Shown here: positions 15,762 to 48,625 of the stretch, in pieces
How positions within the stretch are numbered: position 1 is the stretch's first letter
How the letters are laid out: each line of letters begins with the position of its first letter
NCBI GenBank assembly: GCA_000934665.2
Contig: KZ538150.1
Span: forward strand, 1-64,000
Direction: 5' to 3'
DNA: 64,000 nucleotides
Source: Catajapyx aquilonaris
Taxonomy: Eukaryota
Program-made: the position numbers and the translations under genes
The notes under the pieces: model-generated
Told to the model about the DNA's origin: nothing
The model's database searches: none
The model's input: only the letters and a program-made list of their open reading frames with translations

Positions 15762-17090
15762 ATGGCTGCCCTAACCAGAAGGATGTGGTTTCTTATTGGA
15801 GGAATTGGAGCCCTCTTTGTGGGTAGGTACACAATACAGATCTTTGCGTGTGTGCCACGAGTCCATCATGCGTGTCAACAGGGCATAGTTCTTCGGATTC
15901 TTTCGACTTGTTGCAGGTATTCTGATTGTGGTGCTGGCGCTCACCTTGGGAAGAGGTTCAGACTTGTGGGAAGGTGAGTGGGAGAAGAATGCCTATTGAG
16001 GAGTATGCTAAAACTATATGGATTATTTTCAGGTTTGCTATATCAGCCTAGAACAGAAGACCACTTGATTCGATTCAAAAGCGGCAATATTGGTGTTTGG
16101 GGACCTCTGGTTGCAGACCTAGGTGTCTTTCTTGAAAGTATGCTTTTTCGTTTGAAAAATGCTAATAGGTTGACTATATTAATACTATAAGTTCAAAGTT
16201 GCGGTTTGGTCCAGTTAGGTGAATTTGATAGAGTAAGGTTTCTTTATCGATCATTATTTAATCAGATATTTCATTTTTTTATACCGCAGATTACAACCGG
16301 CCTCATTCTGACCATAGCAAAATAGTTGATTGCAATTGGTCATTGCTGCCCACTGAAGGAAAAGTTTGTGATTTTAGATTAAAAAATCTGGGCCCATCCT
16401 GCAACATAGGCAATAAGTATGGCTACGAAGAAGGAAAGCCTTGCGTTTTCATATATCCCGTCAAGGTAATGTATGCTCAGAATATGAGAACCACATCATA
16501 CACACTTAGTTAATTAGTTTCAAATACGATCTGAAAGAGTTCCGCCTACATAATGGAATTACATTCATAGAAACCAGACTGGGTGCCAGAATATTACCAG
16601 AATAGTCACCAACTACCGCAAGATATGCCAGAGGAACTTCAAAAGTACATCAAAGAAGTGGAGGCAACAGATCGACAAAAGGTGAGACTAATTTTAATTA
16701 TGTCTGAGTAATACGTAACAAATATGTCATTAATATTTTCATAGCTTCAAACGTTGTGGCTATCTTGTAATGGAGAAGATGCTGTTGACGTAGAACACAT
16801 TGGCGTTTTAAATTATAGCAAATTCCATGGATTTCCCTCATATTACTTCCCTTACAAAGAGCAAGAAGAATATTTGAGTCCCTTGGTGGCTGTGCAATTT
16901 ACTAGTCTTATTGGTAAGTCGTATATTGGTGGTCTTCTTGGTCACAGCCTCGTGCAACAAGGAAAAGTCCAAAAATAATTTGCATTTTCATTTCACAGAT
17001 CGCATTGCAGTAAGTGTGAAGTGCCGGGTATGGGCCAAGAACATCGGTGAATACGACGGTTTTGTTAAGTTTCAAATTCTGAAAGAATAA
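15762..17090 (+). CDS. ATP1B: Na+/K+-ATPase beta-subunit-like (nervana-like) paralog 1, ~256 aa, 7 exons
   Basis: GT-AG exons 15762-15822, 15917-15973, 16033-16137, 16290-16465, 16571-16681, 16745-16913, 16999-17090 splice to an open frame: MAALTRR-MWFLIGGIGALFVGILIVVLALTL (TM)...GLLYQP...CNW..KVCDF..SCNIGNKYGYEEGKPCVFIYP..WVPEYY..LPQDMPEEL..LWLSCNGE..GFPSYYFPY..YLSPLVAVQF..KCRVWAKNI..VKFQILKE*. Six conserved Cys. Symbol is family-level only. Confidence 0.93.
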
Positions 17091-18368
17091 AATAATATAC
17101 AGTGTAGCACTTGCCAGCTGTAGAAATAAAAGAAAGGCTTGTTTTGTTTCTCCAACATTTGGTATCATCGTCTTCACCTGCAGCTCACCCAGTTGCCACA
17201 TCAGAGGCTCAATCATCTGATGACGACACATAACTCCTATCGCTGAGTAAATACAGCTGAGTCGAGAGGGCGCTGGTATATACTTGGGTTCCGTCCCCAA
17301 GTTCCGATAAGATATTCTCTCTCAGCCAAAGCTGGGCACAATAATCCGCCCAAACACACACACTTGTGTTCCGCAGCCTCTTATGGCGCATTTTTAATCT
17401 CTCCGTACAGGCAGATGAGTGTCGCAACACTCATCTGTATTGGCAGGTTTGCAGTTTGCAATTAGGAATTGTCTAGCAGCTTCCTCGGACATTGAGGTGA
17501 GTCCTGTACTGTTATGCTCTGATATTGAATGTTTCTTTGTTGCAATTTGTGTGGAATAACAGTCACGTGGATATTGTGTGCAGTTTGACACCAAATTTTT
17601 ATGTATACTAAAAGTAAACAACAGGAGACAATTTTTTGTGCACACCTCTGACAGCTCGTGTTTAGCATCATATGTTCTGTATATGCCAGTCTGATCAATT
17701 TCCTACAAAGCAGTTGATGTCACACTGAACTTTAATAATTATGTTTTGATGCACTATGTCACCTAACATTCCGATATTGTTATTAGAGAAAAGTGCAACT
17801 TTTTTTTATTCGCTAATAATTATCATAAACTGTTTTTTTTCCCCTTTCAAACATCAATATTAAACTTATCGTATTGTTTATAATAGACACTTAGGGCAAG
17901 AGGTTAAAGAGAAGAAGCGATTGAGAGACCTTGGAAGAATGATGGAGCAGAAAAGGGGCTCAATTATTCCATCTGCGGTGAACTTATTCCCTAAAGAGAC
18001 ACTTAGATCTGGTTAGCTTAACTCGATCACTACCTCCGGCAAAGTCCAGAGGAGGGCCATTGCAGTGGCCGCTATAAGCATAGCAATCTTGCACACTCAG
18101 CAACCTCAGTAATGTGCTATAAAAATGTGCGAATTCAGCGACGTATCATATACTCTGTGACACGTAACTGTGCGATTGGATTTTAATATCGTGATACAAA
18201 TACTGACGCGCTATAGCCGTGACACCTGCCACAAAATGAGACTCGAATTTTTTATGCAGAATCATTTTGCACGTGACTATTCACCTAGTTGAAACTTCAT
18301 TGATGTACTTTCCTTTGTACTTTCTTCCTGTACTACACCTGTCTATTTTACAGGCTATATAACGCATC

Positions 18369-21041
18369 ATGCCTTCACAATCTTTGACCGTGAATGATCA
18401 GGAAGCCCCCAAGAGCTATAAAAGGGCTATACTCTACAGTCTAGTGGTAGCTGTTGTTCTAGTTGGTGAGTTATATTTGGTTCAACCGCCATCCATCCAT
18501 CCAACCATGCAAATATAAGTTTTCACAATCACAGTTATCACGTTTAAAGCTGTTTTATCTTCAAATAGTCAGTGTAACATGACACAGCCTTCGCATAGTC
18601 AAAGAAACTTACTTGTAAATTTTTATTACAAGTAAGTTTCTCTGACTATGAGAAGGGTATGCCACATCATCAAAATGAATTCTAAATATTAACATATCCC
18701 TGAATGTGGCATGCCTTGTCGCCAACATTGCTTGCTCCATATAATTGTGATACTCTCATGGGAGCTGTACTTTGTCACACTTCGCAGTTGTAAAATTTTA
18801 CGGCTGACGTTGGACAAGGCCGAATTACAGAGCTAGCTGTCATGATCAACATTATTTATGTTCACAGGAGTTGTTGTGGTTGTTCTTGCTCTCACGCTTA
18901 AGGGCAACGACATGTCAGAGGGTGAGCTTCTCATATTTCCATTTTTCCAACGACATGCATGTTAGACAGTTATTTGATGTTATCCCAAAGGTCAGTCGTG
19001 TGTTAAATATATTTTATCATTGACTTGGGTCTCTGACTGACCGTATTTATGGAAAAAGTCGTGATTTTTTTCACTTATTAATGATAAAACATTCAAAGGT
19101 TAATTACAGTAGTAGTAATATTTAAGTTGCAAACAATAATTTTCATCCCGGTCTACGAATATATTTAATTCAAACTCTTCTTTTCAGGTGTGATACTGCT
19201 TCCAAAAACCAAAAACAATAGCATAGTGTTCCGCCACGGAACTTTTCGAAGGAACGCAGATATTCCACTAGATGGGCACATTATTGTGGACAGCATCAAT
19301 GAGTTTATGAGTATGTAGATATATATCAACTCTGAGATATAAAAGGGTCATCAGACGTTAACAACAAAAATCTGATAAATAGGCTTCCATTGTGATTATA
19401 AAATCTAATTTTAATGTAAATTTGACAATTAATTTCAGACAAAATATTTAGCACACAGTTTTCTCATTTAATCCTTTCTTCCTATTACGCTTGCTGCAAA
19501 TTATGTTTCTCTCATACTAAGGCAATACTGAAATAATTATCATGTCATCTTGCTTTCGTTAGTCAATCACACTAAAAATCTTTGTACTCTGAAAGGTCAA
19601 GGTCGGAATATCCACCCAAAAAGTTACCGCATATGCAGGTGAAATGATCTGTATCGGAATTGCTTCAAAATGTTGCAGCTCAGTACCCGAATGGTGTGGA
19701 AAATAAAGACATTGACCCGACAAGCAACCTAATCCCATGTGCATATGGACGCCGAAGAGCTACTGGAGATAAATGTTGTTTATTCGACGCTGCTTCCTTA
19801 GGATGGCGCTGCGGAAGTAATTACAACTATGGTTATGAGAGTGGGAAGCCCTGTGTCATTCTTCTACCTGAGAAGGTTAATATTATGCAGAAAATAAAAA
19901 TATCAACAATTTTGCGATAACATAATCAATATTGTCGTTCGAATTAAATCATGAGCATAAATCAAATACTGATAATTGAAACACGCATATTAGAGTTTTA
20001 TCATCTTATTTAGATACCTTACTGGGAACCTGAATACTACACCACAAGCCGAGAACTTCCTGAAGAGATGCCATCTGATCTAAGAGAAGCAATTCGGGAA
20101 GCGGAAGCTAAAGATCCAGTGTTGGTGAGCTGTTTAACTTATTTCACACATCGAAACAAATTAACAACCAAAGTTTTTATTTGTAGTTGGAAACCTTGTG
20201 GATTTGGTGCGGAGGTGAAACAGACGAAGATAGAATAAACCTGAGAAATGTTCAATATTCTCCCAGAAGAGGTTTCCCAGCGTATTATTTTCCATACCGA
20301 GGTCAAAGCGCGTATCTCAGTCCATTAGTGGGAGTCAGTTTTCCCGGCCTAACAGGTATGACAATAAATTCTCTCTAAATAGTAAAGACAAGCGTAACAT
20401 TATAAAATATGAACTGATGTCACTTTATGATAGTTTTTACCGTGTGTATCTTGTATTGCTTATAATGGAAACTTGTAAATGCCAGTATCACCTTAGACTG
20501 AGTTTGTAATAAAATATCAGATATCACACACACAAGGGGTAACTGACAACAGCACTAACACTTTTATGCAGGGGATATTGCTGTGAAATAGACAAGATGT
20601 TGTCATTACTGAAAGTGCAAGAATATTTTGACACCTGAAGGTCCAGGTTTATTACACTTTGCAACTAAGCGTTCATCTGATGTTTTTCAGTACCGAAATA
20701 AAAGTTTTTCTGCATTTTATCTGGTTTTGGCACTAAATCATACGGTTACATTGCAAGATAATATTCTGTTGGGTGAAGTTGGGCAAATTGAGAGAATGAC
20801 AAAAAAATGACAGCAATGTTGTCATTTACATACAGATTTATATAATATTAATTAAGTAATGCAACAATAAATTATCTCTGCACATGAATTCCAGTACCGG
20901 CGCAACATTGTTAATTTCTTACACTAACTTGTCTTTTCTTCTTTTTCAGAGAACGTCAAAGTCCATGTCAGATGCCAACTGTGGGCAAAAAACATACCAA
21001 AAAACCGGGGCTTCGTACGCTTCTCTATCCTGGTGCAATAA
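18369..21041 (+). CDS. ATP1B: Na+/K+-ATPase beta-subunit-like paralog 2, 7 exons
   Basis: Exons 18369-18465, 18868-18921, 19188-19310, 19679-19875, 20014-20124, 20187-20355, 20950-21041. Motifs NYGYESGKPCVILLP, WEPEYY..LPEEMPSDL, LWIWCGGE, GFPAYYFPY, YLSPLVGV, RCQLWAKNI. Confidence 0.92.
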
Positions 21042-21522: not shown

Positions 21523-23773
21523 ATGTCGGCCCGGGTTTTTCTCTTCGCAGTCGGAGCTATACTGTTCTTAAGTGGTGAGTAAGAAGTCTACAAAGTGGGC
21601 AGGGCAGCACGAGACACTATCTGGTTACAACATGGTTTCAATAAAGTGCAATGTTTGCGTCCAACATGGCGTCCATAGAGATGTTTCAGGAAGCGGACTA
21701 TTTATACCAATTAAACGACGTGCACGTAATAATTAAAGAATGCCATAAATTACGAACGCAATGAATAATGCAGCAAGGAAGATAAACAAACAGAGCGCCA
21801 TGAGGGAAGAGATAATCACTACTTAATGACACAAAACTACTAATTGTGTGTTTATATTTTTACAGTGTCCTTGGCAATTATCTTAATAATTACTCTCACT
21901 GTGGATCCAGATCATGGTAATGTCACTAATATTTACTACTGTAATTATGTAATTAAAGTAAAACAAATTTATATTTTTCAGGTTTAGCCATGAAGCCAGA
22001 TGTGGCGGATAAACTAATGATATTTCATTCATGGAAAAAGTCTGATTGGTTTCCATATGTAGAGGAAATTGATCACATGCTGCAGACCAACTGTGAGTGT
22101 ATTCCTAAGTAATGTTAAAGTCACCAACTCGATATCAATGACATACACACTCTGAAATGTTCCGAGGTGTAACAAGGTTCAGACTTCTTTCAAAAATTAG
22201 GCGTTTACTTTACAGGATATTTTTTGTTTTATAGTGTTTTACCCAACTGGAATAAATTTAGTAATCTAACGCATATAAATGTCTTGCACATGACAATTGT
22301 ACATGTACTGGTATCCTGCATGTAAAAAAGACAATTTGCCATATTTTGCATAGTTCATTCATCCCCAGTAATTCATGATGAAGACATACGAGTATTACAC
22401 ATTTTATGGTATTATTTTATATTAGTTGGAAACCGTTGGAAACACACACTGCGCAGCAAATGTCAATTTTAAAAGTAAAATTAAGGTTCGTTTGACATTC
22501 TAATGTGACAAGTGCAAAAACTAACTTGACCGATTATGAATTTTATGTATACTTTTATACTTCAGGAAATTATGTTAAATATTGTCAAGGTAGTTTAAAA
22601 TTATGGTAAATTGGTGACAGAACTTTTAAGCGTCAAAAAAAATCTGCAATATAGGTGTATTCAAATCAGTTACTCAAGATAGGCCTCAGCACTTGACATA
22701 ACAATTTACCATCAAGAGTGCAATTGCGCCAATAAGATCAGGTCTGGTAGAGTTAATCTTGTGAGTAAAGCCGTACTTACGTACAGTGCTAAACAACGCT
22801 TAATGCCATGTCACCTTGAATACTCTAATGGAACTGTCAGAGTTAGTGTTCTTAAATGACTGACGGACAACTTTATTATTGCAGACTTTGCTGGTTACCC
22901 ATTATTCGAAGTGTTCCACAGCAATCGCATGGTCAACTGTCATTACAACAGGTACCCAACTCCGAACGAGTCTTGTATTGTGAACCTGGCTGAATTGGGT
23001 TCCGAATGTACTAAAAATAACAGCTTCGGATTCTCTGAAGGACGTCCATGTATAATTTTATACCCATACAAGCAGGTAGAGGATGCATAATTTAGCACAA
23101 TATAATGAAAACAAATTAGCTGTGTAACATTGTAAACTTCCATGCAGGGCGCTGAATGGGTTCCAGATTATTACCAAACAAGTCGAGATTTACCAGCAAC
23201 AATGCCACATTTCCTAAAGGAGCATATTGCAGAATTGGAGAAGACAGATCCTCTGAAGGTATGGCTGCAGTCGTACTATAGGCCCTATTAGCTCCAAAAT
23301 GTATATTCGATATGGGCAAAATAAAATTGCCTAGAAAACCATAATGTCTCACATTCAAAGATAACAAATTAATATAAATTCACCAATGTAGGACAAATGA
23401 AAATGAAAACTTATCATTTAAAAAAATGTCTGTCATCCTGGGTTTAGCTAAGAACGTTATGGCTGTCATGCGAAGGAGAAGAAACTGAAGATCGGCAATT
23501 TGTCACATCGGTTGTGTATAACCCACTACCAGGATATCCAGGGTACTACTTTCCTCATAGGAATAATCCTGGCTACCGGACACCTCTGGTTGCGGTTCAG
23601 TTCCAAGGAGTTGAAAGTAAGTGGCTGCAATAAATGATCAGCAAGTATAATTAAATATTTGAATTGCAGTTGACACTACAATCAGCATCAAGTGTCGTCT
23701 GTGGGCAAAGAACATTCCTCCTGATGAGGGTTACATCCGGTTCAAAATCGAGGTTGACTGGAGCGAAAAGTAG
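21523..23773 (+). CDS. ATP1B: Na+/K+-ATPase beta-subunit-like paralog 3, 7 exons
   Basis: Exons 21523-21574, 21866-21916, 21982-22092, 22885-23075, 23148-23258, 23448-23616, 23670-23773. Motifs SFGFSEGRPCIILYP, WVPDYY..LPATMP, LWLSCEGE, GYPGYYFP, PLVAVQF, KCRLWAKNI. Absent from the ORF track and read directly from the DNA. Confidence 0.92.
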
Positions 23774-24004: not shown

Positions 24005-25856
24005 ATGGCCAACCCGAAGACACTGATTGTCATTGGATTGCTAGTGGCTGGAGTACTAGGTGAGTTTATATACTCAAGATTGCTATTCTAAAACACAGAC
24101 TAATTGTTCTTAGCGTATGTTATTGTGTAGAGAATGTGGACTACAATCATGTAATGTTTGGTTCATTAGCGATGTATGAATATATTAATTAGCAGGATCG
24201 GGTGACTAACTACCTTTCTTGCTATTTTTAAAAATGGGAAGGAGTTAAACCTTATGAAATGACTTGTTCCGGGAATTCTCTCTCGACGGCGGAGATGAAA
24301 TTACTCGTTCGGGTTTTCTAAAAAATTAAGCATGTAAATCAATAATATTATTTATCGCAGAACGTAAAATTTTCAAAGCTGAGGCGCTACACTTTACACT
24401 CAAAATTAATTACTACCCGGTGACGTCACTATTTCTCTGATGCGCTAGTGTCATAAGGCGGATTAGTCCACGTCCTGTTTTCACCTACTTAGGCGGCGAA
24501 ACTGGGGCAGAGTTATTATTCGCAAGTGGTAGAAGTACAAGTAAATCTGTATCACACCTACTCACTTACACAATTACGTAAAACATGCAATGTAACATGA
24601 TAATTCTTTGCAGGAGGTGGCCTTTTATTCTTGGTCTTCTTTACAATGCCTGGTCCTGTGATAATGCCAGGTAAGATTCACACTACTCTTGCTCGAATAT
24701 AAAAACAATAATAAATTAATAGCAAGTTTTTGTTCCTTAGGGCTTCATTATGAACCAAACAGCAAGGATCAGGCCCTTGTTGTGAGACAAGAAGACCATG
24801 AAACATGGACTCCATACACCGAAAAGATTAGAAACTTCCTTCATGGTAATATAATATGAAATATGATTTTCTTTTAATAGTCTTGATATTCATAGAACTT
24901 TCAAACCCTAGAGTACGACCATCCTCATGCCGGAAAGGAAAACTTGGTATCCTGCAATGAAGATTTCTACCCCAACAAAGGACACATTTGCCGTTTCCAC
25001 TTAGAACAGCTCGGAAATGAATGCACTTACGAGAACCACTATGGTTATCATATTGGCAAACCATGTGTCGTCCTGTACCCTTCAATGGTAAGGAAAAGAC
25101 TGGACTTAAAACTAATTAGTACTTGCAAACCTTGTATTTTTTTAGGAGGAAGACTGGATCCCAGAATATTACACTGTTAACGATACCCTCCCGAAGTCCA
25201 TGCCAAAGGAACTGCAAGATCACATTGAGAAAGTGAAGCATCATCCACTCCAGGTAGTTATTGAGAGTTTAAATTCAAATTTAACTAGCACAAAAATTTC
25301 TTCAATTATATTTGTCAAGCATTTAGCATTACCATTACCTATAATTTATATTGCCCGTCAATTAAGTGCATGCTGTATTCCGGTGATCATCAGTAGAATA
25401 TCTTTTCTGCTTTAATCACCAATCAAAAAATGCAATTATCTTCCACTTTGAAACAGATGAATACATTGTGGGTGTCATGCAAACCTGAGAAGAATCTCAA
25501 GAATGGCACCGCTCTTGAAATAAAATTCACCCCACAACCTGGATTTGCCGGATACTATTTTCCAGCTCGCCACAGTATTGATGGGTATATGAATCCTCTA
25601 GTGGCGGTACAATTCACCAGTTCAACACGTGAGTACCAATCATAATACAATATACATATACAGTACCGTAAATTTGGAATGCACCAATCTCGGCACCAAT
25701 GCATCATATCAATATCGAAACATACATATATGTCATAAACCTCAATTTTATATCCACATTTTAGGTGTGAATTCTGTCGCCATCCGCTGCCGCCTATGGG
25801 CGAAGAACATACCGTCAAAGTGGGCACATGTCCGTTTCACACTCTCAGTTGACTAA
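24005..25856 (+). CDS. ATP1B: Na+/K+-ATPase beta-subunit-like paralog 4, 7 exons
   Basis: Exons 24005-24059, 24614-24670, 24741-24845, 24912-25087, 25146-25253, 25457-25628, 25765-25856. Motifs HYGYHIGKPCVVLYP, WIPEYY..LPKSMPKEL, LWVSC, GFAGYYFP, NPLVAVQF, RCRLWAKNI..VRFTLSVD*. Confidence 0.92.
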
Positions 25857-26322: not shown

Positions 26323-28559
26323 ATGCCGAAGCGATCTTTAGTTATTGCAGGTGCTGTCATCGCCATCCTATTAGGTAAGAACAAATGGATTATATTGATT
26401 TAATTATTTTATGCTTTACATTCTCAACTATGATGGTGGACAATTTTTCAAAAAGCTACACAAAAAGACACATTGCTAATTATAAGTTCTCTGAACATTA
26501 TTTAATGACAAATAGCATAAATAAGTGTAAACAAGTTAACTTAGAATGTCTAAACATTACCCTCAGCTGCTCATTACAACATTCAAGTCAGGTTTATACT
26601 ATTGTAATTCCAACACTCAAAATTTTAAAGGACCCATTCATTATTTTCAGTGCTCGTCATTATAATTCTGGTAGTGGCCTTGGCAGCAAGTGGTGACAAC
26701 TATGGTAACATCTCATTCAACTCGCAGAATAGGTTTTGCACATTTGAACTTTTCATATTAAATTTAGAAATCACTTTTAGGGCTCGAGTTCGAACCAAAC
26801 ATTCCTGGTGAAGAAGGCAAGGTGATTATGATAACTCACGGCGATGACGAAAACTTGAGCAACTACACAGATAGACTTGTGGAATTTTTGGAACGTACGT
26901 ATAAAATAATTTAAATTTAGCTGGATTTACATTATGTATTTGAGTAATACGCTGCGCTGGTATAAATAGCGTACGAGAATCCAAGCGAGGAAGCAGAAGA
27001 GCATCTTGTCCAGTGTCAAAGAGACCAGTACCCATCAGAGGATCAAGTCTGCAAGATCAACTTGGAACTGTTGGGTACAGAGTGTACCAGAGAAAATGAG
27101 TTTGGTTACCGGAGAGGAAGACCATGTGTCCTCTTGTATCCATTTGTGGTCAGTCCAATACTGTCACTTTTTATAGAAATTTTAGTCGAATGCCCGTATT
27201 TCTCTTTTATTAATGGTGATTAAACATACCGTATGTTAGCATGCACAAAAAAAACAGGCTAGACCAAAAATTTTACACTACTGATGTAAATATAAAATGT
27301 CCACCCAATGATTGTAGGATTCAAACTTTATATACGGCACCTTTTGAATTTCCTCTAGATAGATTAGATTAATAATAATTACTTGAAAAGTAGCACATAA
27401 TATTAATAATTTATAAGGCATGTAACAATACAAAGAAACATGACGAATTGATATTCACTTCTGATCAAATTGCTTGTTGTGTAAAGTCATGGTTATTAAC
27501 ATGTTGCGTCTTCATGATTGCGAATAAAAGTTGAAAAGAATTGGATGGAAATCGCAGATAAGTTCAACATTAAAATAATCATATAATCCAGGAATTATTT
27601 CTTTATCAACTTTAACCTCATTAAAGTAAGCAAACAGACAAACGATCATGTTATTACCGATAAAATGGATATGGAGCGATGAAGGACACCGATAAATAAA
27701 TAAAAGTATAATATTTTATGACGCACATGAATGTTGACTATACGACATGAAATGGGTTATACCGTACCAATTATTGTAAACAACAAAAAAAACAACAAAT
27801 TGAGCAAATTTCAAGCAATCGCATTCAAAGCATGTGACCCTCTTTATCGTAACTCAGTAAGATCTGTTGCATGTAAGTCATACACCTTGTAATTTCAATA
27901 TTTAATCAGAATTATAATTTTATCGCATAATTATGGACACATCCAAATTAATGTACTGCACTCATTATATTATAGGAAAGTGTTCTAGAAGTTCGGTTAT
28001 TGCAATTAAATTTGAAATTATGTTATTTCACAGGAAGAAGGGTGGGAACCAGAATATTACAACAGCACAGAAGACCTTCCGGATGAAATGCCTGCAGTTC
28101 TTCAAGAGAGAATAAGCTTAGTTCGCAATAATCCTACACAAGCAAGTGCATTTGAAGTAGTCGATATAATTCAAACTTGGTATGAATATGAACCAGATTC
28201 TTCAAAGTAGTTTGTTTTGTATTATTGCAGATGAAAACTTTGTGGGTGTCGTGCGAAGGAGAGAACATAACTGACCATGAAAATATAGGGCCTTTGAGAT
28301 TCTACCCTGGGCCAGGATTCGCCGGATTTTACTTTCCTCCTAAGAGACATCTTCCTGGATACTTGGAACCTGTCATAGCCCTTCAGTTCCAACGACCAAA
28401 ATGTAACCACCCATATATTAATATTTTTAATTCTCACATTAATTATATCAAATGATTTTTTCCACAGCTGGAACGCTTATTTCCGTTAAATGCAGCTTGT
28501 GGGCCAAAAATATTCCTGACGGCTGGGACGATCTTCATTTCCATATTCAAGTGGATTAG
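26323..28559 (+). CDS. ATP1B: Na+/K+-ATPase beta-subunit-like paralog 5, 7 exons
   Basis: Exons 26323-26374, 26651-26704, 26781-26894, 26970-27148, 28034-~28141 (probable GC donor), 28231-28402, 28468-28559. Motifs FGYRRGRPCVLLYP, WEPEYY..LPDEMP, LWVSCEGEN..DHENIGP, EPVIALQF, KCSLWAKNI. Confidence 0.91.
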
Positions 28560-35737: not shown

Positions 35738-38219
35738 ATGCCATCCGAGAGTTGCAAACGTTGCTGCATTGTTGGAGGAGTTACCACAGCTGTTATTCTG
35801 GGTGAGTGTATAGTGGTGCAGAATGTAAAAAATTTGAAAGTGCGATCGTTTATACTGCATTATAATAGTACAACGTAATACCATGTGTGATACATAGTAT
35901 CTGTGAATTAGTTGCAAATTCATAGAGCTAGTATTCCAAAAGTGAATGAGTAGTTAATAAGCATGCATGTGACAATGCGTGACATCACAAGGCAGCGACT
36001 AATCCTGGAAGATGGTCCTTGAATTGATAAGTTAGTAGAAGGGGCCCCGACGCTCATAGCGTGATTCTGACAATAGAGACACATCCTTATTAGGTTAAGT
36101 GTCTAGAGATATTAGTTAAAATTATTTAAGTTAAGCGTCCTTCCATTATTTTCAAAACTAGCAGTATTTTCCAAAAGAAGGATGAAAGAACCACCCAATC
36201 AATGGAAGTGGACCAGCATGCTTCATTATGACATTGAATAATAATTCCAAAATATCTGAAACTATTTAATATACACTGTGATGAAATACGGTACTGTACA
36301 TGTGGCGCATGTGAAAAATTATGACGACGATATATACTATACATGAGCTTTGAAAACATTACGCATTAAATTTTTGCAGTAATTGTATTGGTGCTTACGC
36401 TGGCGTTAATAGGGTGGGACTCCAAGTATGGTACGTATATATTTACAGTATGCATTGTTATAATGCTTACTGGTTGGAATATATTAATAATTTCAAATAT
36501 AAAAACCAAATTTGACATCTGTTGTAGGTCTGTCTTTCGAGCCGAATCTGGACCCGGACACTGCTTTAATTTCTTACAAACACGGCATACAAGGAAACTG
36601 GAGCAGATTATATGACAGAATGGAAATTTTCCTCATGCGTTATGGTGAGTCTGTCGAAGTCAGAAAAATGGAAAAAATAATTTCAACTTCCGATACCCAA
36701 GTGACACTTGCAATATCAATAATGTCCCTAATTCGCAATGACACTATAGACATTTATCCCACAAGTGCGGCCCTACCGGTGGGATAAATGCCATTTTTCA
36801 TGACAGTGTTTACGTATACACCTGGTACTGTTAATATGTCAGATGCGCAAGAAACGAGCCCGAGTGCAAAAACATGCAACTGGAACAAGTTGCCACATGA
36901 GGATGAAGTATGCCAAGTGTTCCGAAAAGATATGGGATGGTCGTGTGGGCGTGAACAGAACTATGGATACCCATCAGGAACACCGTGTATCATTCTCTAT
37001 CCTCACATGGTAACGATTTGGTTTTTTCATTAGTTGGATGCGATTGACGACCACAAAAGGTAATCAATAATATATTTTCCTTACCAGAGACAAGAATGGG
37101 TTCCAGAATATTACACCCCAAATGAGCTTCCAGAGGAGATGCCTAATGACGTGAAGTTGTACATTACATCCCAGAGAGTCTCTACTAACCCTAACCAGGT
37201 TAATACACTAAAAATGCCTGCAATCAAATTATTTTGAACCGTGTGGAGTAATCATTTAAGTTAATTAATGGTTACACACACATACTACGTGACATCTATC
37301 ATGTACTGTCTTATTGATACAGGAATAATTTCAAATTTTAAAGCATGAAGGATCTAGTTATTTTCTTTGGCACAACAAAGTTTGTCGTGGCAGCTGAAAA
37401 CAGGGTGGGCATACATGCATAGTGATGCGTAAATGGGGGTAAGTGTCTTGTGCAATGTCTTTATTTCTCATTGAAGGGAAGCAGCTGTGTCAGTACGAAT
37501 ATAATACGTAAGAGATAAAAACAACACTGACATCCCAGCACCAAAATGACAATACATAGTAGGCTATACTATTGGAGCAATATTATTGCGAACTCTTTCA
37601 TGGTCCTTATAGAAATGCAAATTAATGTTTCCGATATAATATTGAGTCGATTGAAGTATTTTTTGACCAAAATATAAACTGATTGTTTCACGTGTATTCA
37701 TGTGTGGCTCATTTGCATATCTAATGAAATATTGACCACAACAATATTGTCCGATATTGTCCCAATAAAACATCTGACTTAATGGGTTTTCATGTTATTA
37801 TCCATGAATGTAATATGTTTACTAAAATGTCACTTTTAAACTAATTCCGTTCATTTGTTTCTAGTACACCCAAATGCTGGAGACAGTGTGGGTTTCGTGC
37901 GAAGGTGAAGACTATCAAGACGCTGACAACTTAATGGGTGTTCGCTACCTCCCAATGCCCGGATTCCCTGGGTACTACTTCCCATCCCGCAGGAACAATC
38001 CCGGATACGCCGAGCCTTTTGTAGCGGTGCAGTTCAGCGGTCCAAGAAGTAAGTATAATTAGCTAGATTCTGCCCTCGTTAGCCAAAGCACTGCTGCACA
38101 GTTAAATGAATTATTATGGCATTCCAGGGGGTGTGGTCATCTCTGTCAGATGCAACTTGTGGGCCAAAAATATACCCAGCGGAGAAGGAGTACTCCGCTT
38201 CAAACTTAGAGTTGATTAA
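35738..38219 (+). CDS. ATP1B: Na+/K+-ATPase beta-subunit-like paralog 8, 7 exons
   Basis: Exons 35738-35801, 36380-36430, 36528-36644, 36807-37009, 37088-37198, 37865-38048, 38128-38219. Motifs GLSFEP, NYGYPSGTPCIILYP, WVPEYY..LPEEMP, VWVSCEGE, GFPGYYFP, EPFVAVQF, RCNLWAKNI..RFKLRVD*. Confidence 0.92.
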
Positions 38220-39867
38220 GCGACAAGGAGTGAATCATTTCTCATTCGCATTCATATCATGAAACCCGCTTTGTGTAAAGTTCCTCCATTACGCCATGCT
38301 AACTAACTTCATGTACCCTAAATAGCACGATGTGACTAATTTTTTGACAAAAGCACAATGGCATCAAACTGTGTAATAAATACCAGTACCGTATGTAAAA
38401 AATAGACTCAACAAATTTATTGCCTGGTTTTGTCGTATCAAATTGTACGTAATACTAGTCAATAAATAACAAATTAAATATTTGAGTGTGCATGTGTGCA
38501 CCTGCAATTAGAAGCAAGCTGTTACTGTCAATGGAAATATGAAAAGTGTGAGGAAAAGTGGCAACGTCCGGAAGCCCATAAAAATTGTTCTGAAGGCCAG
38601 AAGTTTATTGAAGCTAATGGGTGTGTAGTATACAAATTGGACTTGCCCCTATTAGCCCAAAAGCTCATCAAGTCAGCTCTCAATTAGTAGACATCACATA
38701 CCAATCAGAAATGGACATAAAAGCATCTGAATAATAGGAGCAATATTCTTTCAAGTATGGTACAAGTAGTTATCTGTTCTACAATGCCTTCTTATGACTC
38801 ATTAACATTGGCGTTAAATTAAAGTTTTGATCGGCCCTGTCAAATTGGCTTCTGACTGATTCCATTCTCGATAGGGCATGTAATATTACTGTTTCGCATG
38901 TCATTTCTCCAAGCTAGATTTAAAAGAGATTACCTAGGCTATTCAGGAGTTTGAAACGGCAAGGCAGCATTTGAAACTATTGAATTTACAGCAATTTACA
39001 GCGCATAAAAGCTTGGAAGCACTTGAGAAACTTTTGCCAGCGGTCGGAGAAGTACGGATATGTACAAGGTCGGCCCTACGTCTTGATATTATACCCACAC
39101 ATGGTAAGCCAATATAGTGTCATTCATTATGTAACGTGTCATTTGCATCTGCAAGCAGACGGCTGACTTTTGCGTTATGCTTCTTTTCGATGAGTATAGT
39201 TCAGAATATTAGGATATCTGGCAGCCGTTATCTATTTTCATTTAGCCTAATACAGAATTACAGATCATGGAATTTGAATGACCACACTATCTATAGTAGG
39301 GAGTTACGATAAGAATGTCGTAAATGGCTTTTGAGAATAATAGGATAAATCACTTTTTGACTTTTAAAACCATCCACTTCAACCTCATAGTCATCTCTGG
39401 TAAATTGGGTAAAATGCTAGGGAAACCTCCCCTTTACCAATTTGGTGAACTTGACAGGTTCCCGCTAGGAATGCCTATATTGTTAGACAATTGAGAGGGA
39501 GCATTTGTCGTTCACTACAGCATTGGCTGAAAGACAACCTGATAATAATAGTTTGGTCCCTCCTGCACATGTCCATATGAAATGCCGGAATTCCTTCAAA
39601 AAAAAAACAACAACAACAATATTGCTCAGCTAAGCTCCTACAGGAAACTCTGCTGGGAATTTTGTATGGTCATGCTCATACTCAAGAAAAATTGATTATC
39701 ACGAAAATGGCCTTCCTCAAGCAACAACACGACAAATTAGTGTGAAATAAATTTCTAAAGATATTAATTTGCACTTGGTTCGTGTATATACAAAAGCGGA
39801 AGCCAAATAAGAAACGAATATAACAGTGACAAAACATATGTCCCATGCCGTGTCAGCTTTTGACAGC

Positions 39868-40377: not shown

Positions 40378-41710
40378 ATGCCTGAATCGGGCAGCAGGAG
40401 GCCTGCCAGCAGGAGGAACAGGTGGATCTGTCTAGGGGTGGTTGCAGCCTTAATTGCTCTTACAAGTGTTATAGGTAAGGTATAAGTGACGATTATTTAA
40501 AACAAATTAATCAGCATTTTGCACATATTACAGTGTTCGTGACTGTTTATGGCGGGGCTATGGCCAGGCCAGGAACAAGTGAATATGGTAAATCAACACC
40601 TAATCTGTATATGGGCATTGATTTGATTGCTTAATTTTTTATTACAGGTCTCAAATTCGAGCCAAATCCAAATTCAAATGGATTGATCTTGATTCACATA
40701 GGTGACGTAGAAGAGGATGCGACTTATGTGTACAGGATCGAGAGTTATTTGAGCAGTAAGTTTTCTAAAATATGATGAAAAGTAATTCATGCCCTGTTCA
40801 AAACCTAACCAAAACACAATTTCAGATTATCAGCCCAGTCCATCCGTGGTGGATTGCCGACCTGGACATTACCCTCAGGTGGACCAAGTGTGTGCTTTTC
40901 CCACACAAAACATCGCCAAATTTTGCCGAGAAGATTTAAAATACGGATATATCAGAGGTAGTCCGTGCGTTTTAATATACGCTCATATGGTAAGCCTTAT
41001 TCATAATAATATATTGTCATTTGCTAGTCATAATAATACTCAAAAATGATGTTTTATTTGGATTGAACTGAATAGAAACTGATGTGATACTATTTAATAT
41101 ATAACTTGGGGTTATTAACAAAATCATTATTTCAATCAGAATTGACATTTATTTTCATTCTCATTTTATCTTCATGCACTAAATATTTATTATACTGCAG
41201 CCAGATGACTGGGTGCCTGCCACATACAACTATAGTGACATGCTTCCAGAAAATATGCCAGAAGATTTGCAGAAGAAAATCTCTGACAGATATGCTGATC
41301 CCCAACAGGTAATGTAACCCAGGTTGGCCAACATGACCTAAAATACTAACAACCTATAATGTTGCCATTGTGATTCAGCTGGAAAATGCTTGGATGTCGT
41401 GCCAAGGTGAAGATGCACCTGATGTGGAATACATGGGACCACTTGATTACTACCCTGACCCACCTGGCTTTCCTGCCTACAATTTCCCTCCGAAGAGGAA
41501 TGTGGATGGATACATGGATCCAGTCGTAGCTGTCAGGTTCTCCAGACCGAATAGTACGTACCGAGAGAGTACCGTAGCCAAATATATTTTTGATTTTAAT
41601 TGACATATCTTTCTTTTATAGGTGGTGTGGCTGTAAGAATTCGATGTCGAATATGGACCAAGAATGCTTCTGAAAGGGACGAAGTGACATTTGTACTTCG
41701 AGTTGACTAA
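40378..41710 (+). CDS. ATP1B: Na+/K+-ATPase beta-subunit-like paralog 9, 7 exons
   Basis: Exons 40378-40474, 40534-40587, 40648-40755, 40826-40989, 41201-41308, 41379-41554 (approximate), 41622-41710. Motifs GLKFEP, KYGYIRGSPCVLIY, WVPATY..LPENMPEDL, WMSCQGEDAPDVEYMGP, GFPAYNFP, DPVVAVRF, RCRIWTKN..FVLRVD*. Confidence 0.92.
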
Positions 41711-43553: not shown

Positions 43554-46212
43554 TAGTTTGGGGACTTGAATGCTGCTCCTTGCTTTGAACTAGTTCACAG
43601 GTCTTGACTTCATGCTTGTTATCGTGTGATGACGTAGTCAGTCGAGTTTCTCTTATCAGAAGAAAAAACAGGTCTATCTGCTCAATCCGATACATAAGGT
43701 ATGACTAGACCACAATGAACGATTCGATTACATTTTTTTGACTTCTGATGCAGCTTAATTTTGCAGAAAATAGAAAGTATGTAAGACCAAAATTATTGAG
43801 AAAGCAAAATCTGATTACAGATTCTGCAATATATTGATGAAGGTCATGATGGTGTTGATTTGAACAGCCTATTGGAGTTTGGCATACAGCCTATTCGACA
43901 AAAATAACTTAGAGCTACTTTCCTATCTTTATGATCTACATTTTTAAAACGTATCAAACTATTTTAGAAAGCCTAATTTTACCCCAAAGTGCGCACATAC
44001 AGAACAGTGTGAAAGAGTGATTCAGTTAATTATATAACGTTGATATGGCCAAGCCAACCAAAATATGACTAATATGTGCCTTTTAATTTCTGCGCAATAA
44101 CGGGCAAGTCACCTGCAGGGCTTTTTAGAAATCCGCGATAATTACAATTCAGAGTGAATAATGCAAATATGAATGGAAATGGAATTAATGTAAATGTAGG
44201 TACTGTACCTGGTATATCATAACAATTTTATAACTAATATAACTGCAGGATAACTTTCTTATACAGATACTCGCATTTGGGGCTTCTCTATCAAACTCTC
44301 TGAACTGATGCATAATGTAGGTAATTCGTTGACTATAAAAAATGACCCCTATTTCAGCACTAAACGCTGCACTTGTCTTTATTTTGTTCTAAGTATTTGG
44401 CATTTCCCCAAAGAAAGGCCATAAAATTCCTGCCTAAATTAACATCCAGGCATGTCTCAGAATTGTAAGAAACAAAATTTACCACCAAGGAGAAGGACCG
44501 GGGCAGTACTTGAGATAAGACCTTATCCCTCTCCTTCCTTCAATCCCCCCAAAAATTCACCCGGGCGTGAAGGAAGCCACTTATAGCCCCCCCGATGAGT
44601 TCAAACTCCTTGGCCCAGTTTCCCTCCATAGCCACCAGAGGGGCAGCACAATTGACCCCCGCCAATTCTTTGCGGCCCGAGCAAAAATAGCTCCGGATCC
44701 AAAGTTACACCGACAGTGGACCGGGCCACAAGTGCTTTGTATCAGTTGGAATTTAGGTGGTCCCCTCAGCTATGGACAAAAGAACGAGAATTGTTATCAC
44801 TGCCTTCCTAGGGGTCATTCTGCTCGGTGAGTCACATTATTGTTGTTAAGTGTCAAGTGTCGTTACTGCGTTTTCCTTGTTTGGCTGCTCAACTGAATTT
44901 GTCACCCCCGTGATTTTTAACCGCAGAAAGTGATTTTACGTATAATTCGACCACATCATGAGCTGTGTTTTTCTGTCCCTTAATCGGTAGAAGTAGCTCC
45001 CAATTACGTATTGACATCTTTGAAAATCACAATCTGGAAATGTGTTCGGTGCTTTGCAAGAGAGTGATTCCGTATTGAATTTATGCGAGAATTTTATTCG
45101 CAGCCTGTATACTTTGAGTCAGTGGACTGTAAAGGTATGAATGAACATCCTGAATCGATTAAAATGTTAAGTGGCATGCAATTCCCCTTCAAAATCAAAA
45201 CTGTACGTATAGTTATAGTCAAAAATCCCATACCGTGCAAATTGAATTACGTATAGCCAAGAGAAAATTGATTCCTGTTATTCTAAAATGCCAGCAGGCA
45301 ATGTGGGTCTCATGTTTACAAATATTTATGTGAGTGTTTGCTTCGCTTGTTAAGGGCTTGTGTTGCAGAGCCTAGATCTCTTCATGCTAATGTACACATC
45401 ACACGCCAGCAACTTTTAACTACGTACACACGTGTGTAAACTATCATCCGGAAGTTGGTCAATGCTACTCATCAATATATTGTTTAGACACAATGCAAGT
45501 TTACCAAGTATATTCATGGAGGAAGGGCTTGCAACTGATTTTCAAGGCTAAGATTTTGCATTTATAACATTGCGCCATTTGTCATGTATATTGGGATTGT
45601 TGTTCAGAACAATAAACATTCCAGTGATTCTACACGAAAATACACGTGAGGCTGGCAAACAAGCCCAAATAATGCTGCAGTAAATTTTTTTAAACTTGTT
45701 TACCTCATAAGTTTGATAGAGCTATGTTAGGATACGCCCTTTTTCCCACTCACGTGTAAGCTAATTAGGTTACATGTTCTTGCCATATAACTTATGCGCA
45801 TATGCAGTTACGTGCTTTCACGCTATTATTGCTCGGTTTCTCATAATGAGCTCAAGAACATCTGGGCAAGGGCCTCGTGTCAGAGTTCATATAGTGTCAG
45901 ACTCGTGTTTTCATACAACAGTCCCGGTTGTAGTCGACAAGATTTTCGACGCCATCACTATATGCATCACATGCTTTATCCTTTTCACTGACTACCCCAC
46001 TGGCACTAAACCATTTAGACAAACAAACCGCAGGCCTGCAGTTGTCAGACGAACAAGGTGTAGAAACAATGTAATTGATATCCAAGGCAGTTTCCGGGGG
46101 AAAGTAATAAAAAGACAGCGTCATCTTCCTAGTTCTGGCCGTGACTCAGGACTGTATATCCTTGGCCGGCCACCAAAATGCTAACAGGGGTTTGGCTCTC
46201 GAATCTTGATAT

Positions 46213-48625
46213 ATGTACTACTGGCGTATGTTTACATTTTTTATAACCCTGCATAACGTGGCATTCTTCTCGTTACAGTGACCCTCACCATGCTCCTCGT
46301 GCTTTTCTTAGTTATCATTCCAGCCCCAGCCCATTCGTCTGGTGCAGGTACGACCTTGTGCATACTGGGTTCTTGAGCCAGAATCACAGCACATTCTTTC
46401 AGATAATCCTTCCCGAGTGCCACGATTCGAAGGATTGACCATTCATCCTGAACCGAATGCAGAGGGCATCTTGCACTTTCGGGAGGGAAGGGATGGAAAT
46501 TGGACTTTGCTGGCAGAAAATATAGACACGTTTCTCAAGAGTAAGTACAGGCTGCACCTATATAATAAAATAATTGTCAATATAAAGCCGTCCTGGTACT
46601 TAATAAACTTAATAATGATTATATTAATTAACACGTCCCAAAAGTTGAACACAACACTAACAGATATATAACGTAATCTTCATATTATATTTGTAGCTTA
46701 TTACCAGCCTCTTCAAGATGTGTCGTATAGATCATGCTACTACAACTACACCCCGAATGATGACAGAGTCTGCAGGTTCACACCAGCAGGGACCCTTGGT
46801 TACTGCTCGGCTGACAACAACAACTTTGGATACCTAATAGGAAAGCCTTGCGTTTTGATACAAATTAATCCAGTAAGTCCAGTGTACAAATGGGCATCTA
46901 ATTACAGAATGTATTCCTAATATAATATGTACTGTACGCGCATATTTAACAAAATAATAATTTGAAAATTATTCGGCAGTCATTTTGGCACAGTGGTATT
47001 TTACTAAACAGTATCATATAAACATTAATATGGAAAAATTTCCTAACCGATGCACAGGAATCTTTGTATTTACGCATCCCTAAATCTTGGAGATTTAGCA
47101 GTCCTGTGTTTCGCATTTCGGAACATTATTTTGTAAATTTGCATATATAAATTGGGACAGCTTTGGAATGGGATAAATGCCTGAAAATAATGTTCATATA
47201 CATAAACAGCCTGCATTTCCTATGTGGGTTGTCCAAATGAAAAGGTGACGAGCATTGTAGCCACAGCATGGTATTAAAAAGCCGATTGGGCCTATTTGTT
47301 ACTGGTTCCATACTCGACTTCACCTGTGAGTTTCATATGTAATAACATCATGCATTCTTGAGCAGGAATTTTTGATGGCTGACAGGGTTAAATATATTCC
47401 ATTCGTGGCCCGTCATGTCAGCTCTCAATAAACTTTTCGGATTTTGGAATTTGGGATAAAGGATTCTCAACTGTATCGGTTAAAGACACCACCACCATCG
47501 GATATATCAGCCTATACAGGGTGTATCTGAACTCAGTGCCCCGACGTATATGACTGCTTTCCTAGCCACCAGAGGATCGATTTAAGTATAGGAGTCATAT
47601 GTCTGGGCAGCCTCATTACGGAGATAATTGGCCACAAACATGTAGTACAAAATATCCTGTCGGTTAGGCCACCCATCGAACCCTCCCCCAGTCAGAAGGC
47701 TCTGGAAGGTCGGGGGGTGGGACTTTGTTGGTTTGTTGCCCACAGGTGGTAAGGCCTCTTTGGCTAGTTACACCAGAAAATTCTATTTAAAAGTCAGAAG
47801 GAGCGATTAGGCAAAAATCGCTAAAGAGTGTATCTCAGTAATGAGGCTGCCCAGACATATGATTCCTATACTTAAATCGATCCTCTGGTGGCTAGGAAGG
47901 CAGTCATATACGTCGGGGCACTGAGTTCAGATACACCCTGTATACTCTTTCGTAACAAAATACTACTTGCGCTATCATTTACATTATTACATTTCATTAC
48001 ATTAACACCATTGACATGCAAATCATGTTTTTGCAGGATGTCGGGTGGGTACCAGACAACTACGATATTGTTGGAGAACTTCCAGTCGGGATATCGCCAG
48101 GCGTCAAACTGTCAATCGACGCATATGCAGAAACTCTTCCAAAGGACTCTCCGGTATGACTTAAACAATCAGTTCCTGTCATGTTTCACTCATCGCATTT
48201 ATTTCGCATATATCTTATTTTATTTGCCAGTTTACTTTCATATTTGACGCGTTTCTGTCCAACTAACCACTTTTGTATCCTCAGAGTGGTATTACACCAA
48301 CGATAATTTCCTGCGACGGTATGGTCGATCAAGACAAGAAGCATATTGGTACTGTCTCCTATTACCCATCCATGGGGTACCCTGGTTACTATTACCCGCG
48401 AAGGAACGTAAAGGGTTACGTCCTTCCAGCTGTAGCTGTCAGATTCGAAGGACTTCCGAGTAAGTTATCTCGCATAATATTTGAGACAGTAGTTTTTGAT
48501 TTAAAAAGCTCTAATTTACCTTGCTTTTCTCAGGGGGTGTTACCGTCACTGTCCAATGCCGGGTATTCGCCAGAAATATCTCGTCCAACTGGGGTTATGC
48601 CAATTTCAGGATACGAGTTGACTAA
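46213..48625 (+). CDS. ATP1B: Na+/K+-ATPase beta-subunit-like paralog 10, 7 exons, N-terminus resembles a cleavable signal peptide
   Basis: Exons 46213-46225 (start inferred), 46279-46347, 46403-46540, 46697-46872, 48037-48153, 48285-48459, 48534-48625. Motifs EGLTIHP, NFGYLIGKPCVLIQINP, WVPDNY, ISCDG..DKKHIG, GYPGYYYP, PAVAVRF, QCRVFARNI..FRIRVD*. Confidence 0.88.
47517..47940. mobile_element. Tc1/mariner-type MITE (424 bp) in intron 4 of paralog 10
   Basis: 110-bp TIRs (47517-47626 and 47831-47940) with about 3 mismatches, termini CAGGGTGTATC...GATACACCCTG, and TA on both sides. Confidence 0.92.

What the first reader, a model, noticed from the sequence alone, without database searches (positions are those of the whole stretch)
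15762..48625. Tandem array of ten strongly diverged Na,K-ATPase beta-like genes with no alpha subunit in the window
Seen: ten same-strand genes in 33 kb share 7 coding exons, intron phases 1,1,1,0,0,1 and six ectodomain Cys, yet differ greatly between the motifs, so this is not a recent collapse of identical copies. Established: animals usually have only a few beta genes (Drosophila nrv1-3 plus a few beta-like genes; vertebrate ATP1B1-4), the ectodomain has an Ig-like beta-sandwich, and beta subunits also act in adhesion (AMOG/ATP1B2; Nrv2 in septate junctions). Inference: a lineage-specific expansion into a diversified family of surface or secreted proteins with a new role, such as adhesion/recognition, barrier or ion-transport epithelium specialisation, or toxin binding.
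Basis: partly seen in the sequence, partly recalled or inferred. Interest (0 to 1): 0.88.

Follow-up and report, generated by a model that had tools for sequence, protein, structure and literature searches.

The report
Ten-gene array of short-tailed pump beta-like genes
An arthropod-type genome carries ten old, very different but intact copies (plus one decayed copy) of a gene related to the sodium-pump beta subunit, all lacking its usual inner tail; this is an unusually large cluster of a little-studied but already described kind of protein.

Summary
Window 15762-48625 (+ strand) contains ten intact genes. Each has 7 coding exons, intron phases 1,1,1,0,0,1 and six conserved ectodomain cysteines. 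All match Pfam PF00287, the Na,K-ATPase beta chain. There is also one decayed exon-4 relic at 39014-39103.

The copies are 27-42% identical as proteins and share almost no nucleotide similarity, and dS is saturated. They are therefore old duplicates, not an assembly artefact.

In a careful tree, nine copies plus one unnamed database protein (P0117, 59% identical to g10) form a supported clade (99/86). The tenth copy, g11, joins weakly. An AU test rejects a clade of the window genes alone (p 0.006), so the family predates this species.

The proteins have only a 7-24-residue N-terminus ahead of the membrane helix. They lack the canonical cytoplasmic tail, the aromatic membrane motif and the juxtamembrane segment. 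They keep the beta-subunit ectodomain fold.

The closest described analogue is the N-terminally truncated 'beta-x' of the milkweed bug (PMC9110512). Function is inferred only: either alpha-subunit partners or alpha-independent surface proteins. The scan's earlier notes held nothing on this.

The parts
15762..17090 (+). g1, beta-like gene, 256 aa. Exons 15762-15822, 15917-15973, 16033-16137, 16290-16465, 16571-16681, 16745-16913, 16999-17090
   Evidence: Model. PF00287 on the exon-4 ORF (28.2 bits) and exon-6 ORF (37.6 bits). Sister of g2 in the tree (99/92).
18369..21041 (+). g2, 280 aa. Exons 18369-18465, 18868-18921, 19188-19310, 19679-19875, 20014-20124, 20187-20355, 20950-21041
   Evidence: PF00287 at 22.3 and 36.9 bits.
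21523..23773 (+). g3, 262 aa. Exons 21523-21574, 21866-21916, 21982-22092, 22885-23075, 23148-23258, 23448-23616, 23670-23773
   Evidence: PF00287 at 22.9 and 33.0 bits.
24005..25856 (+). g4, 254 aa. Exons 24005-24059, 24614-24670, 24741-24845, 24912-25087, 25146-25253, 25457-25628, 25765-25856. The start codon was chosen among three in-frame ATGs.
   Evidence: PF00287 at 24.7 and 35.1 bits.
26323..28559 (+). g5, 256 aa. Exons 26323-26374, 26651-26704, 26781-26894, 26970-27148, 28034-28141, 28231-28402, 28468-28559. Intron 5 has a GC donor (GCAAGT) at 28142.
   Evidence: PF00287 at 15.9, 28.2 and 34.8 bits.
29493..33001 (+). g6, 247 aa in the best-splice model, which ends at 32975. Exons 29493-29559, 30799-30852, 31293-31403, 32214-32398, 32460-32558, 32683-32848, 32914-32975. 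The conserved last-exon frame runs 32921-32998 with its stop to 33001.
   Evidence: PF00287 at 19.3, 22.5 and 43.6 bits. The exon-7 frame problem is visible in the translations.
33760..35189 (+). g7, 281 aa. Exons 33760-33856, 33945-34013, 34080-34193, 34386-34585, 34688-34792, 34863-35028, 35095-35189. Introns 2 and 4 need GC donors. Introns 4 (102 nt) and 6 (66 nt) are in frame and free of stops.
   Evidence: PF00287 at 17.7, 19.2 and 23.4 bits.
35738..38219 (+). g8, 273 aa. Exons 35738-35801, 36380-36430, 36528-36644, 36807-37009, 37088-37198, 37865-38048, 38128-38219
   Evidence: PF00287 at 24.1 and 37.9 bits.
39014..39103 (+). g9 relic: a decayed exon-4 fragment of an eleventh copy. It has Tyr in place of the fourth Cys and stop codons just upstream.
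   Evidence: tblastn best hit is P0117, E 3e-5, 59% over 29 aa. No Pfam hit. No other exon was recovered.
40378..41710 (+). g10, 264 aa. Exons 40378-40474, 40534-40587, 40648-40755, 40826-40989, 41201-41308, 41379-41553, 41622-41710
   Evidence: PF00287 at 20.4 and 32.4 bits. 58.8% identical over 257 aa to P0117, with no gap at any junction.
44772..48625 (+). g11, 273 aa, the most divergent copy. Exons 44772-44826, 46279-46347, 46403-46540, 46697-46872, 48037-48153, 48285-48459, 48534-48625. The acceptors of exons 2 and 3 are ambiguous.
   Evidence: PF00287 at 32.0 bits and 32.1 bits. End branch 3.45.

Best explanation
What it is (shown). This is an old tandem family of ten intact genes plus one dead copy. 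It is a distinct, fast-evolving subfamily of the Na,K-/H,K-ATPase beta-subunit family (PF00287). Each gene encodes a type II membrane protein of 247-281 aa. The N-terminus ahead of the hydrophobic core is 7-24 residues. One long hydrophobic helix is split over exons 1 and 2. A short linker follows, and then the full beta-subunit ectodomain with its six cysteines.

Compared with canonical arthropod beta subunits, three things are missing: the cytoplasmic tail, the aromatic membrane motif (FY..FY in the consensus) and the segment between the membrane and the GL.F.P block.

History (shown). The duplications predate the split from at least one other organism.

How it works (inferred). I think it most likely that these are non-canonical, 'beta-x-like' beta subunits. 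They would still dock through the conserved ectodomain onto a P2C-type ATPase alpha subunit in particular tissues or stages. They would act as alternative maturation or kinetic partners whose membrane and cytoplasmic contacts are relaxed. The stated confidence refers to this mechanism. That the genes are intact beta-family members I hold at above 0.95.
For: - Family: PF00287 hits on 10 of 10 genes.
- PDB profile search with exon 6: the best hit is 8k1l_B 'Na+,K+-ATPase beta2', E 2e-23. Vertebrate beta1 chains follow at about 1e-9.
- Fold: the AlphaFold model of P0117, the g10 orthologue, has pLDDT 89.6 and pTM 0.80. All 39 Foldseek PDB hits with E<=0.001 are beta chains of Na,K- or H,K-ATPases. 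The top hit is 8k1l_B, TM 0.77.
- Constraint: ten complete ORFs and the six Cys are kept although dS is saturated in 39 of 45 pairs (dN 0.56-0.93). The one dead copy has decayed to a single exon fragment.
- Residues invariant over 55 canonical and short beta proteins (six Cys, the W.P block, C.G and others) are also kept in most window copies.
- The block GFP.YYFP...PLVAVQF in exon 6 is the best conserved part. By my recollection, not checked here, its counterpart in beta1 faces the alpha L7/8 loop.
- In Oncopeltus, beads carrying anti-beta-x antibody brought down alpha peptides (Table 1 of PMC9110512, passages read).
- In Drosophila, a divergent beta-like gene (CG5250) and an alpha-like gene (CG3701) both peak in testis (Table 1 of PMC3734111).
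Against: - Three modules that differ from canonical beta subunits are the ones closest to the membrane, where beta meets alpha. There is no cytoplasmic tail, no aromatic membrane motif and no juxtamembrane segment. Homology to 8k1l_B starts only at residue 46 of P0117 against residue 111 of the chain.
- No canonical N-terminal exon is found anywhere in the window. There were 0 HSPs within the first 95 aa of queries of 300 aa or more.
- The membrane exons are only 27% identical between copies. That does not look like specific helix packing against one conserved partner.
- In Oncopeltus nervous tissue, beta-x did not co-localise with alpha1. The authors suggest a role in cell contacts (PMC9110512).
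- No alpha sequence of this organism was available, so binding was not tested at all.
- Transcription is shown for none of the ten genes themselves.
Confidence: 0.45

Rival explanations
1. The proteins are alpha-independent surface proteins. The beta ectodomain, anchored by a generic membrane helix, would act by itself in epithelial cell contacts, junctions or recognition. The ten diverged ectodomains would give different binding specificities.
For: - The tail, the aromatic membrane motif and the juxtamembrane segment are lost, and the membrane exons are poorly conserved.
- Branches are long, 0.5-3.5 against a median of 0.53.
- The truncated beta-x of Oncopeltus lies mostly in epithelia, without alpha1 overlap in nervous tissue. 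Its authors propose cell-cell contact roles (PMC9110512).
- Other insects have beta-2-like proteins whose N-termini look like cleavable signal peptides (my reading of the sequences; names). The fold is therefore used without the canonical anchor.
- The adhesion role of beta2/AMOG and the junction role of Nrv2 are established knowledge. Nrv2 is cited in PMC12125057.
Against: - All characterised beta-family members that I know of, except mammalian BetaM, pair with an alpha subunit (recalled).
- The residues shared by all beta subunits are kept.
- The divergence between copies is no greater than I recall between vertebrate isoforms that all bind alpha.
- Anti-beta-x beads did bring down alpha peptides.
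Confidence: 0.35
2. Most copies are functionless or decaying duplicates that merely still look intact.
For: - One copy (g9) is dead.
- g6 has a frame problem in its last exon.
- g7 needs two GC-AG introns.
- There is no direct expression evidence for any window gene.
Against: - Ten seven-exon ORFs without stops, usable splice sites at 60 of 60 introns, and six conserved Cys are kept at saturated synonymous divergence.
- The dead copy shows how far decay goes at this locus.
- The g10 type exists as a complete 260-aa protein on a 1039-nt contig in another data set.
Confidence: 0.07
3. The array is an assembly artefact, such as collapsed or expanded repeats or haplotigs.
For: None found. The window holds only three N runs, all outside the array.
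Against: The copies share no nucleotide similarity beyond one 62-nt, 79% match. Proteins are 27-42% identical.
Confidence: 0.01

Closest known systems
Beta-x, the N-terminally truncated fourth Na,K-ATPase beta subunit of the milkweed bug Oncopeltus fasciatus (PMC9110512, PMC12125057; passages read)
   Same: [quoted passage not shown] It is non-canonical and its function is still open.
   Different: It is a single gene there, against ten diverged tandem copies here. Orthology was not tested because I had no beta-x sequence. The hemipteran short form I sampled (Rhodnius, P0060) does not group with the window clade.
Canonical arthropod beta subunits: Artemia beta2 (PDB 8k1l chain B; PMC10756188 seen in a search listing only) and insect nervana 1-3 / 'beta-2' (names)
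   Same: The same Pfam family, the same ectodomain fold, six Cys, and the W.PE.Y and GFP.YYFP...VAVQF blocks.
   Different: The canonical chains are 310-340 aa. They carry a cytoplasmic tail with GRT..SW, an FY..FY membrane motif and an IG.NPGLGFRP linker (consensus). The window proteins lack all three and read (I/V)LYP where the canonical ones read KLNKI after the fourth Cys.
Short 'beta-2-like' proteins of other insects (Diploptera, Periplaneta, Coccinella, Rhodnius, midges)
   Same: Short or signal-peptide-like N-termini on a beta ectodomain. They are uncharacterised.
   Different: They fall outside the window clade in both trees. The cockroach forms keep part of the juxtamembrane P.W segment.
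NKA-beta family expansion in the copepod Eurytemora affinis complex (PMC11706791, PMC12639140; passages read, plus one supplement search)
   Same: A published arthropod case of an expanded beta-subunit family, with a syntenic block of beta genes.
   Different: The duplications are described there as recent (Ks 0.00002-0.09). The supplement search returned five 'NKA-beta' mentions. The duplicates here are ancient and of the short-tailed type.
Mammalian BetaM / ATP1B4 (recalled, not checked here)
   Same: A beta-family member that left the pump and took on another role.
   Different: It has a long, specialised N-terminal domain and a nuclear-envelope location. It is not a tandem family.

Membership tests
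Na,K-/H,K-ATPase beta subunit family (Pfam PF00287) | Significant match to the family profile | tested here: met
   The exon-6 ORF is above the 23.3-bit cut-off in 10 of 10 genes. The exon-4 ORF hits in 10 of 10 genes. Whole spliced proteins could not be sent to the Pfam tool.
Na,K-/H,K-ATPase beta subunit family (Pfam PF00287) | Type II topology with one membrane helix near the N-terminus | tested here: met
   A 19-residue hydrophobic core with mean Kyte-Doolittle 2.7-3.7 starts at residue 8-25 in 10 of 10 proteins. The AlphaFold model of P0117 has a helix at 7-38. Orientation is inferred from basic residues before the helix.
Na,K-/H,K-ATPase beta subunit family (Pfam PF00287) | Six ectodomain cysteines (three disulfides) | tested here: met
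   Six conserved Cys columns. They are invariant in the 55-protein alignment. g6 keeps the sixth only in the conserved frame. Disulfide pairing itself was not examined.
Na,K-/H,K-ATPase beta subunit family (Pfam PF00287) | Beta-subunit ectodomain fold | tested here: met
   Tested on P0117, the 59%-identical relative of g10. All 39 Foldseek hits with E<=0.001 are beta chains. The window proteins themselves were not folded.
Canonical (nervana / ATP1B-type) beta subunit | Cytoplasmic N-terminal domain, aromatic membrane motif and juxtamembrane linker | tested here: not met
   Only 7-24 residues precede the hydrophobic core. Homology to 8k1l_B begins at chain residue 111. No window HSP lies in the first 95 aa of canonical queries.
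Canonical (nervana / ATP1B-type) beta subunit | Assembly with a P2C-type alpha subunit | not testable with these tools
   No alpha sequence of this organism was available, and no whole genome is held.
Beta-x type (N-terminally truncated beta, Oncopeltus) | [quoted passage not shown] | tested here: met
   The description of beta-x comes from PMC9110512.
Beta-x type (N-terminally truncated beta, Oncopeltus) | Orthology to beta-x; epithelial location apart from alpha1 | not tested
   No beta-x sequence and no expression data were available.

The most novel reading that the evidence does not exclude
The array encodes a diversified set of alpha-independent cell-surface proteins built on the pump beta-subunit fold. 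It would be a ten-member 'beta-x' code for epithelial contact or recognition, maintained since before the split from at least one other species.
Probability: 0.3. Interest if true: 0.65.

Novelty: new variant of a known kind. Interest (0 to 1): 0.45.

Why it matters
Truncated, non-canonical beta subunits are known from single genes, and their function is unresolved. A locus with ten long-maintained, strongly diverged copies shows that this form is under lasting selection in at least one lineage. It also offers a natural series of variants for asking whether the beta ectodomain can work without the canonical membrane and cytoplasmic contacts to the alpha subunit. It is not a new kind of system. 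Family, fold and the truncated architecture are all already described.

Tried and rejected
- Whole-genome search: no genome is held for this window. Canonical beta and alpha genes elsewhere could therefore not be located.
- First homologue search, with one exon-6 ORF in 'longer' mode: 13 candidates, none significant.
- Search with P0117 at E<=1e-10: it returned only P0117 itself among 492 candidates. My threshold was strict, so weaker relatives were not listed.
- A combined exon 6 + exon 7 alignment through the in-frame g7 ORF was misaligned by MAFFT and dropped. Only the exon-6 alignment A2 was used.
- dN/dS: dS is saturated in 39 of 45 pairs, so no usable ratio and no site-wise test.
- Naming the organism: the cluster look-ups of the nearest unnamed clade gave only JGI/IMG, ENA and Logan records without organism names. 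The protein atlas gave only 'Arthropoda'. The taxon stays at arthropod-like.
- Scan notes: nothing for this place, these words or this sequence.
- Literature: searches for PF00287, for nervana / gene family expansion / tandem duplication, for ATPase subunit beta / tandem / Daphnia / paralogs and for CG5250/CG11703/CG33310 found no report of a large diverged beta array. A search for YYPYY/SYGQ did not yield a paper on the beta-alpha contact, so that point stays a recollection.
- A possible exon-5 remnant of g9 near 39400-39491 (seen by eye) was found neither by tblastn nor by Pfam.
Full report
**What is there.**
- The window is eukaryotic DNA with GC 0.34-0.44. No genome is held for it.
- A beta-subunit signature, [FY]G[YF]..G.P[CY], occurs 11 times. 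All 11 are on the + strand, between 16418 and 46825.
- I scanned 150 of the 162 + strand stop-to-stop ORFs of 45 aa or more in the region.
  - 22 of them matched PF00287 (Na,K-ATPase beta chain) at E<=0.01.
  - The only other hit was one sub-threshold zinc-finger match.
- With one search added, the exon-6 ORF of all ten genes exceeds Pfam's cut-off (23.4-43.6 bits against 23.3).

**Gene models.**
- I placed splice sites by enumerating GT/AG pairs that keep the conserved blocks in frame.
- All ten units assemble into seven coding exons with intron phases 1,1,1,0,0,1 and no internal stop.
- 57 of 60 introns are GT-AG. Three need GC donors of the usual GCAAG type: g5 intron 5, and g7 introns 2 and 4.
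- Each start codon has an in-frame stop 9-114 nt upstream.
- The spacing across junctions 4-6 equals that in canonical beta proteins. This is my comparison of the sequences.
- The g10 model aligns to the contiguous 260-aa database protein P0117 without a gap at any junction.
- Two blemishes remain.
  - In g6, the strong exon-7 acceptor (32914) gives a shifted tail that lacks the sixth Cys. The conserved frame (32921-32998) needs the weak acceptor at 32919 or one more A in a short A-run.
  - In g7, introns 4 and 6 are in frame and free of stops, so retention cannot be excluded.

**An eleventh, dead copy.**
- tblastn with the ten proteins finds one extra locus, 39014-39145 (E 0.001).
- tblastn with all database beta proteins fetched (ids up to P0297) gave 5117 HSPs. 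All but 3 lie inside the ten genes. Those 3 hit 39017-39103, and the best of them is P0117.
- This exon-4 fragment has Tyr in place of the fourth Cys, stops just upstream, and no Pfam hit.

**Age and reality of the copies.**
- Protein identity between copies is 27-42%, mean 34%.
- dN is 0.56-0.93, and dS is undefined or above 2 in 39 of 45 pairs.
- Self-blastn finds one 62-nt, 79% match between two exon 6 copies and nothing else.
- The array is therefore neither recent nor an assembly artefact.
- Six Cys columns are kept. The best conserved exons are 5-7 (38-41% mean identity). The membrane exons 1-2 reach only 27%.

**What the proteins look like.**
- All ten have a strong hydrophobic core beginning at residue 8-25. 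Five start with Met-Pro.
- An alignment of 55 database beta proteins gives the canonical consensus: a tail with GRT..SW, an FY..FY membrane motif, then P.W...S.IG.NPGLGFRP.
- The window proteins go from the helix to the GL.F.P block within about ten residues.
- P0117 matches PDB 8k1l chain B (Na+,K+-ATPase beta2, Artemia salina by the entry title) at E 2.3e-32. The match covers only P0117 residues 46-250 against chain residues 111-322.
- No canonical N-terminal segment is encoded anywhere in the window.
- The AlphaFold model of P0117, built on alignment A3, is confident (pLDDT 89.6, pTM 0.80). All 39 of its Foldseek hits with E<=0.001 are beta chains of Na,K- or H,K-ATPases.

**Relatives.**
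- A profile of the ten exon-6 peptides found 781 proteins at E<=0.001 among 1.84 billion representatives.
- The same profile found 387 at E<=1e-5 in the word-indexed collection. The named ones among the 120 listed are insect nervana / beta-2 proteins.
- Only P0117 is close to a window gene: 58.8% over 257 aa to g10. It comes from one 1039-nt Logan contig without a name.
- The other nine window proteins are no closer to any database protein (29-46%) than to each other.

**Tree.**
- I built a tree from the ten window proteins and 58 database proteins. I picked the 58 from the 268 on hand at that point: 57 of them are 242 aa or longer and one is a 220-aa fragment, and 37 are named while 21 are not. 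The rest were left out.
- In the careful tree, g1-g8, g10 and P0117 form a clade at bootstrap 99 / SH-aLRT 86.
- g11, on a very long branch, joins at 89/62.
- g10 and P0117 are sisters at 100/99. The neighbours g1 and g2 are sisters at 99/92.
- The bootstrap had not fully settled (correlation 0.982).
- The quick tree agrees.
- Holding the ten window genes together without P0117 costs 65.5 log-likelihood units and is rejected (p-AU 0.0058).
- Short-tailed beta-like proteins of cockroaches, a ladybird, a bug and midges lie outside the clade.

**Surroundings.**
- No P-type ATPase family is found in 130 of the 132 flank ORFs of 62 aa or more. The two left out contain N.
- Downstream lie a GILT exon and two tandem tyrosine-kinase genes on the minus strand.

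**How it probably works.** Nothing I could run tests function.
- For a retained partnership with an alpha subunit:
  - the whole ectodomain and the residues shared by all beta subunits are kept;
  - the best conserved block is GFP.YYFP...VAVQF, which I recall, unchecked, as facing the alpha L7/8 loop in beta1;
  - anti-beta-x beads bring down alpha peptides in Oncopeltus (PMC9110512);
  - a divergent beta-like gene and an alpha-like gene share testis expression in Drosophila (PMC3734111).
- Against it:
  - the three modules nearest the membrane are lost;
  - the helix is poorly conserved;
  - beta-x does not co-localise with alpha1, and its authors propose a cell-contact role.
- I put the partner model at about 0.45, the alpha-independent surface model at about 0.35, and largely dead genes at about 0.07.

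**Comparison with print.**
- Insects are reported with a handful of beta genes. Four are reported in Oncopeltus, one of them truncated (PMC12125057, PMC9110512).
- An NKA-beta expansion is published for Eurytemora copepods, but as recent duplicates. A search of one supplement returned five 'NKA-beta' mentions (PMC11706791, PMC12639140).
- My searches found no report of a ten-gene array of anciently diverged, short-tailed beta genes. The library does not hold most subscription journals.
- I therefore rate this a new variant of a known kind, of moderate interest.

Noticed in passing
39868-39939 (-), 43482-43553 (-), 49591-49662 (+): Three tRNA-His (GTG) genes, each scoring 65.7 bits against Rfam tRNA, lie between and just after the last array members. 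The three units share 124-163 nt at 88-98% identity, which is more than the 72-nt tRNA itself. They may be a dispersed tRNA gene unit or a tRNA-derived element.
   Followed up: partly
47513-47626 and 47831-47944: A pair of 114-nt inverted repeats, 97% identical, spans about 430 nt inside intron 4 of g11. It looks like a small terminal-inverted-repeat element.
   Followed up: no
28142; 34014; 34586: Three of the 60 modelled introns need GC donors (GCAAGT, GCAAGT, GCAAGC), two of them in g7. Introns 4 and 6 of g7 are in frame and free of stops.
   Followed up: partly
51204-51389 (+): An ORF matches the GILT thiol reductase family (PF03227, E 2.7e-15). It is presumably an exon of a neighbouring gene.
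   Followed up: no
53131-54447 (-) and 59424-62805 (-): Two tandem genes carry tyrosine-kinase domain exons (PF07714, up to 111 bits). Their exons are 71-73% identical at the nucleotide level.
   Followed up: no
58388-58771 vs 58910-59269; 60098-60224 vs 60426-60562: Two further inverted repeat pairs (73% and 78% identical) lie around the second kinase gene.
   Followed up: no
18580-18664: An 85-nt stretch that matches its own reverse complement at 80% (a palindrome) lies in intron 1 of g2.
   Followed up: no
1-15000: None of the 64 ORFs of 62 aa or more scanned on both strands matched any Pfam family at E<=0.01. One further ORF contained an N and was not sent. What this flank encodes is unknown.
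   Followed up: no
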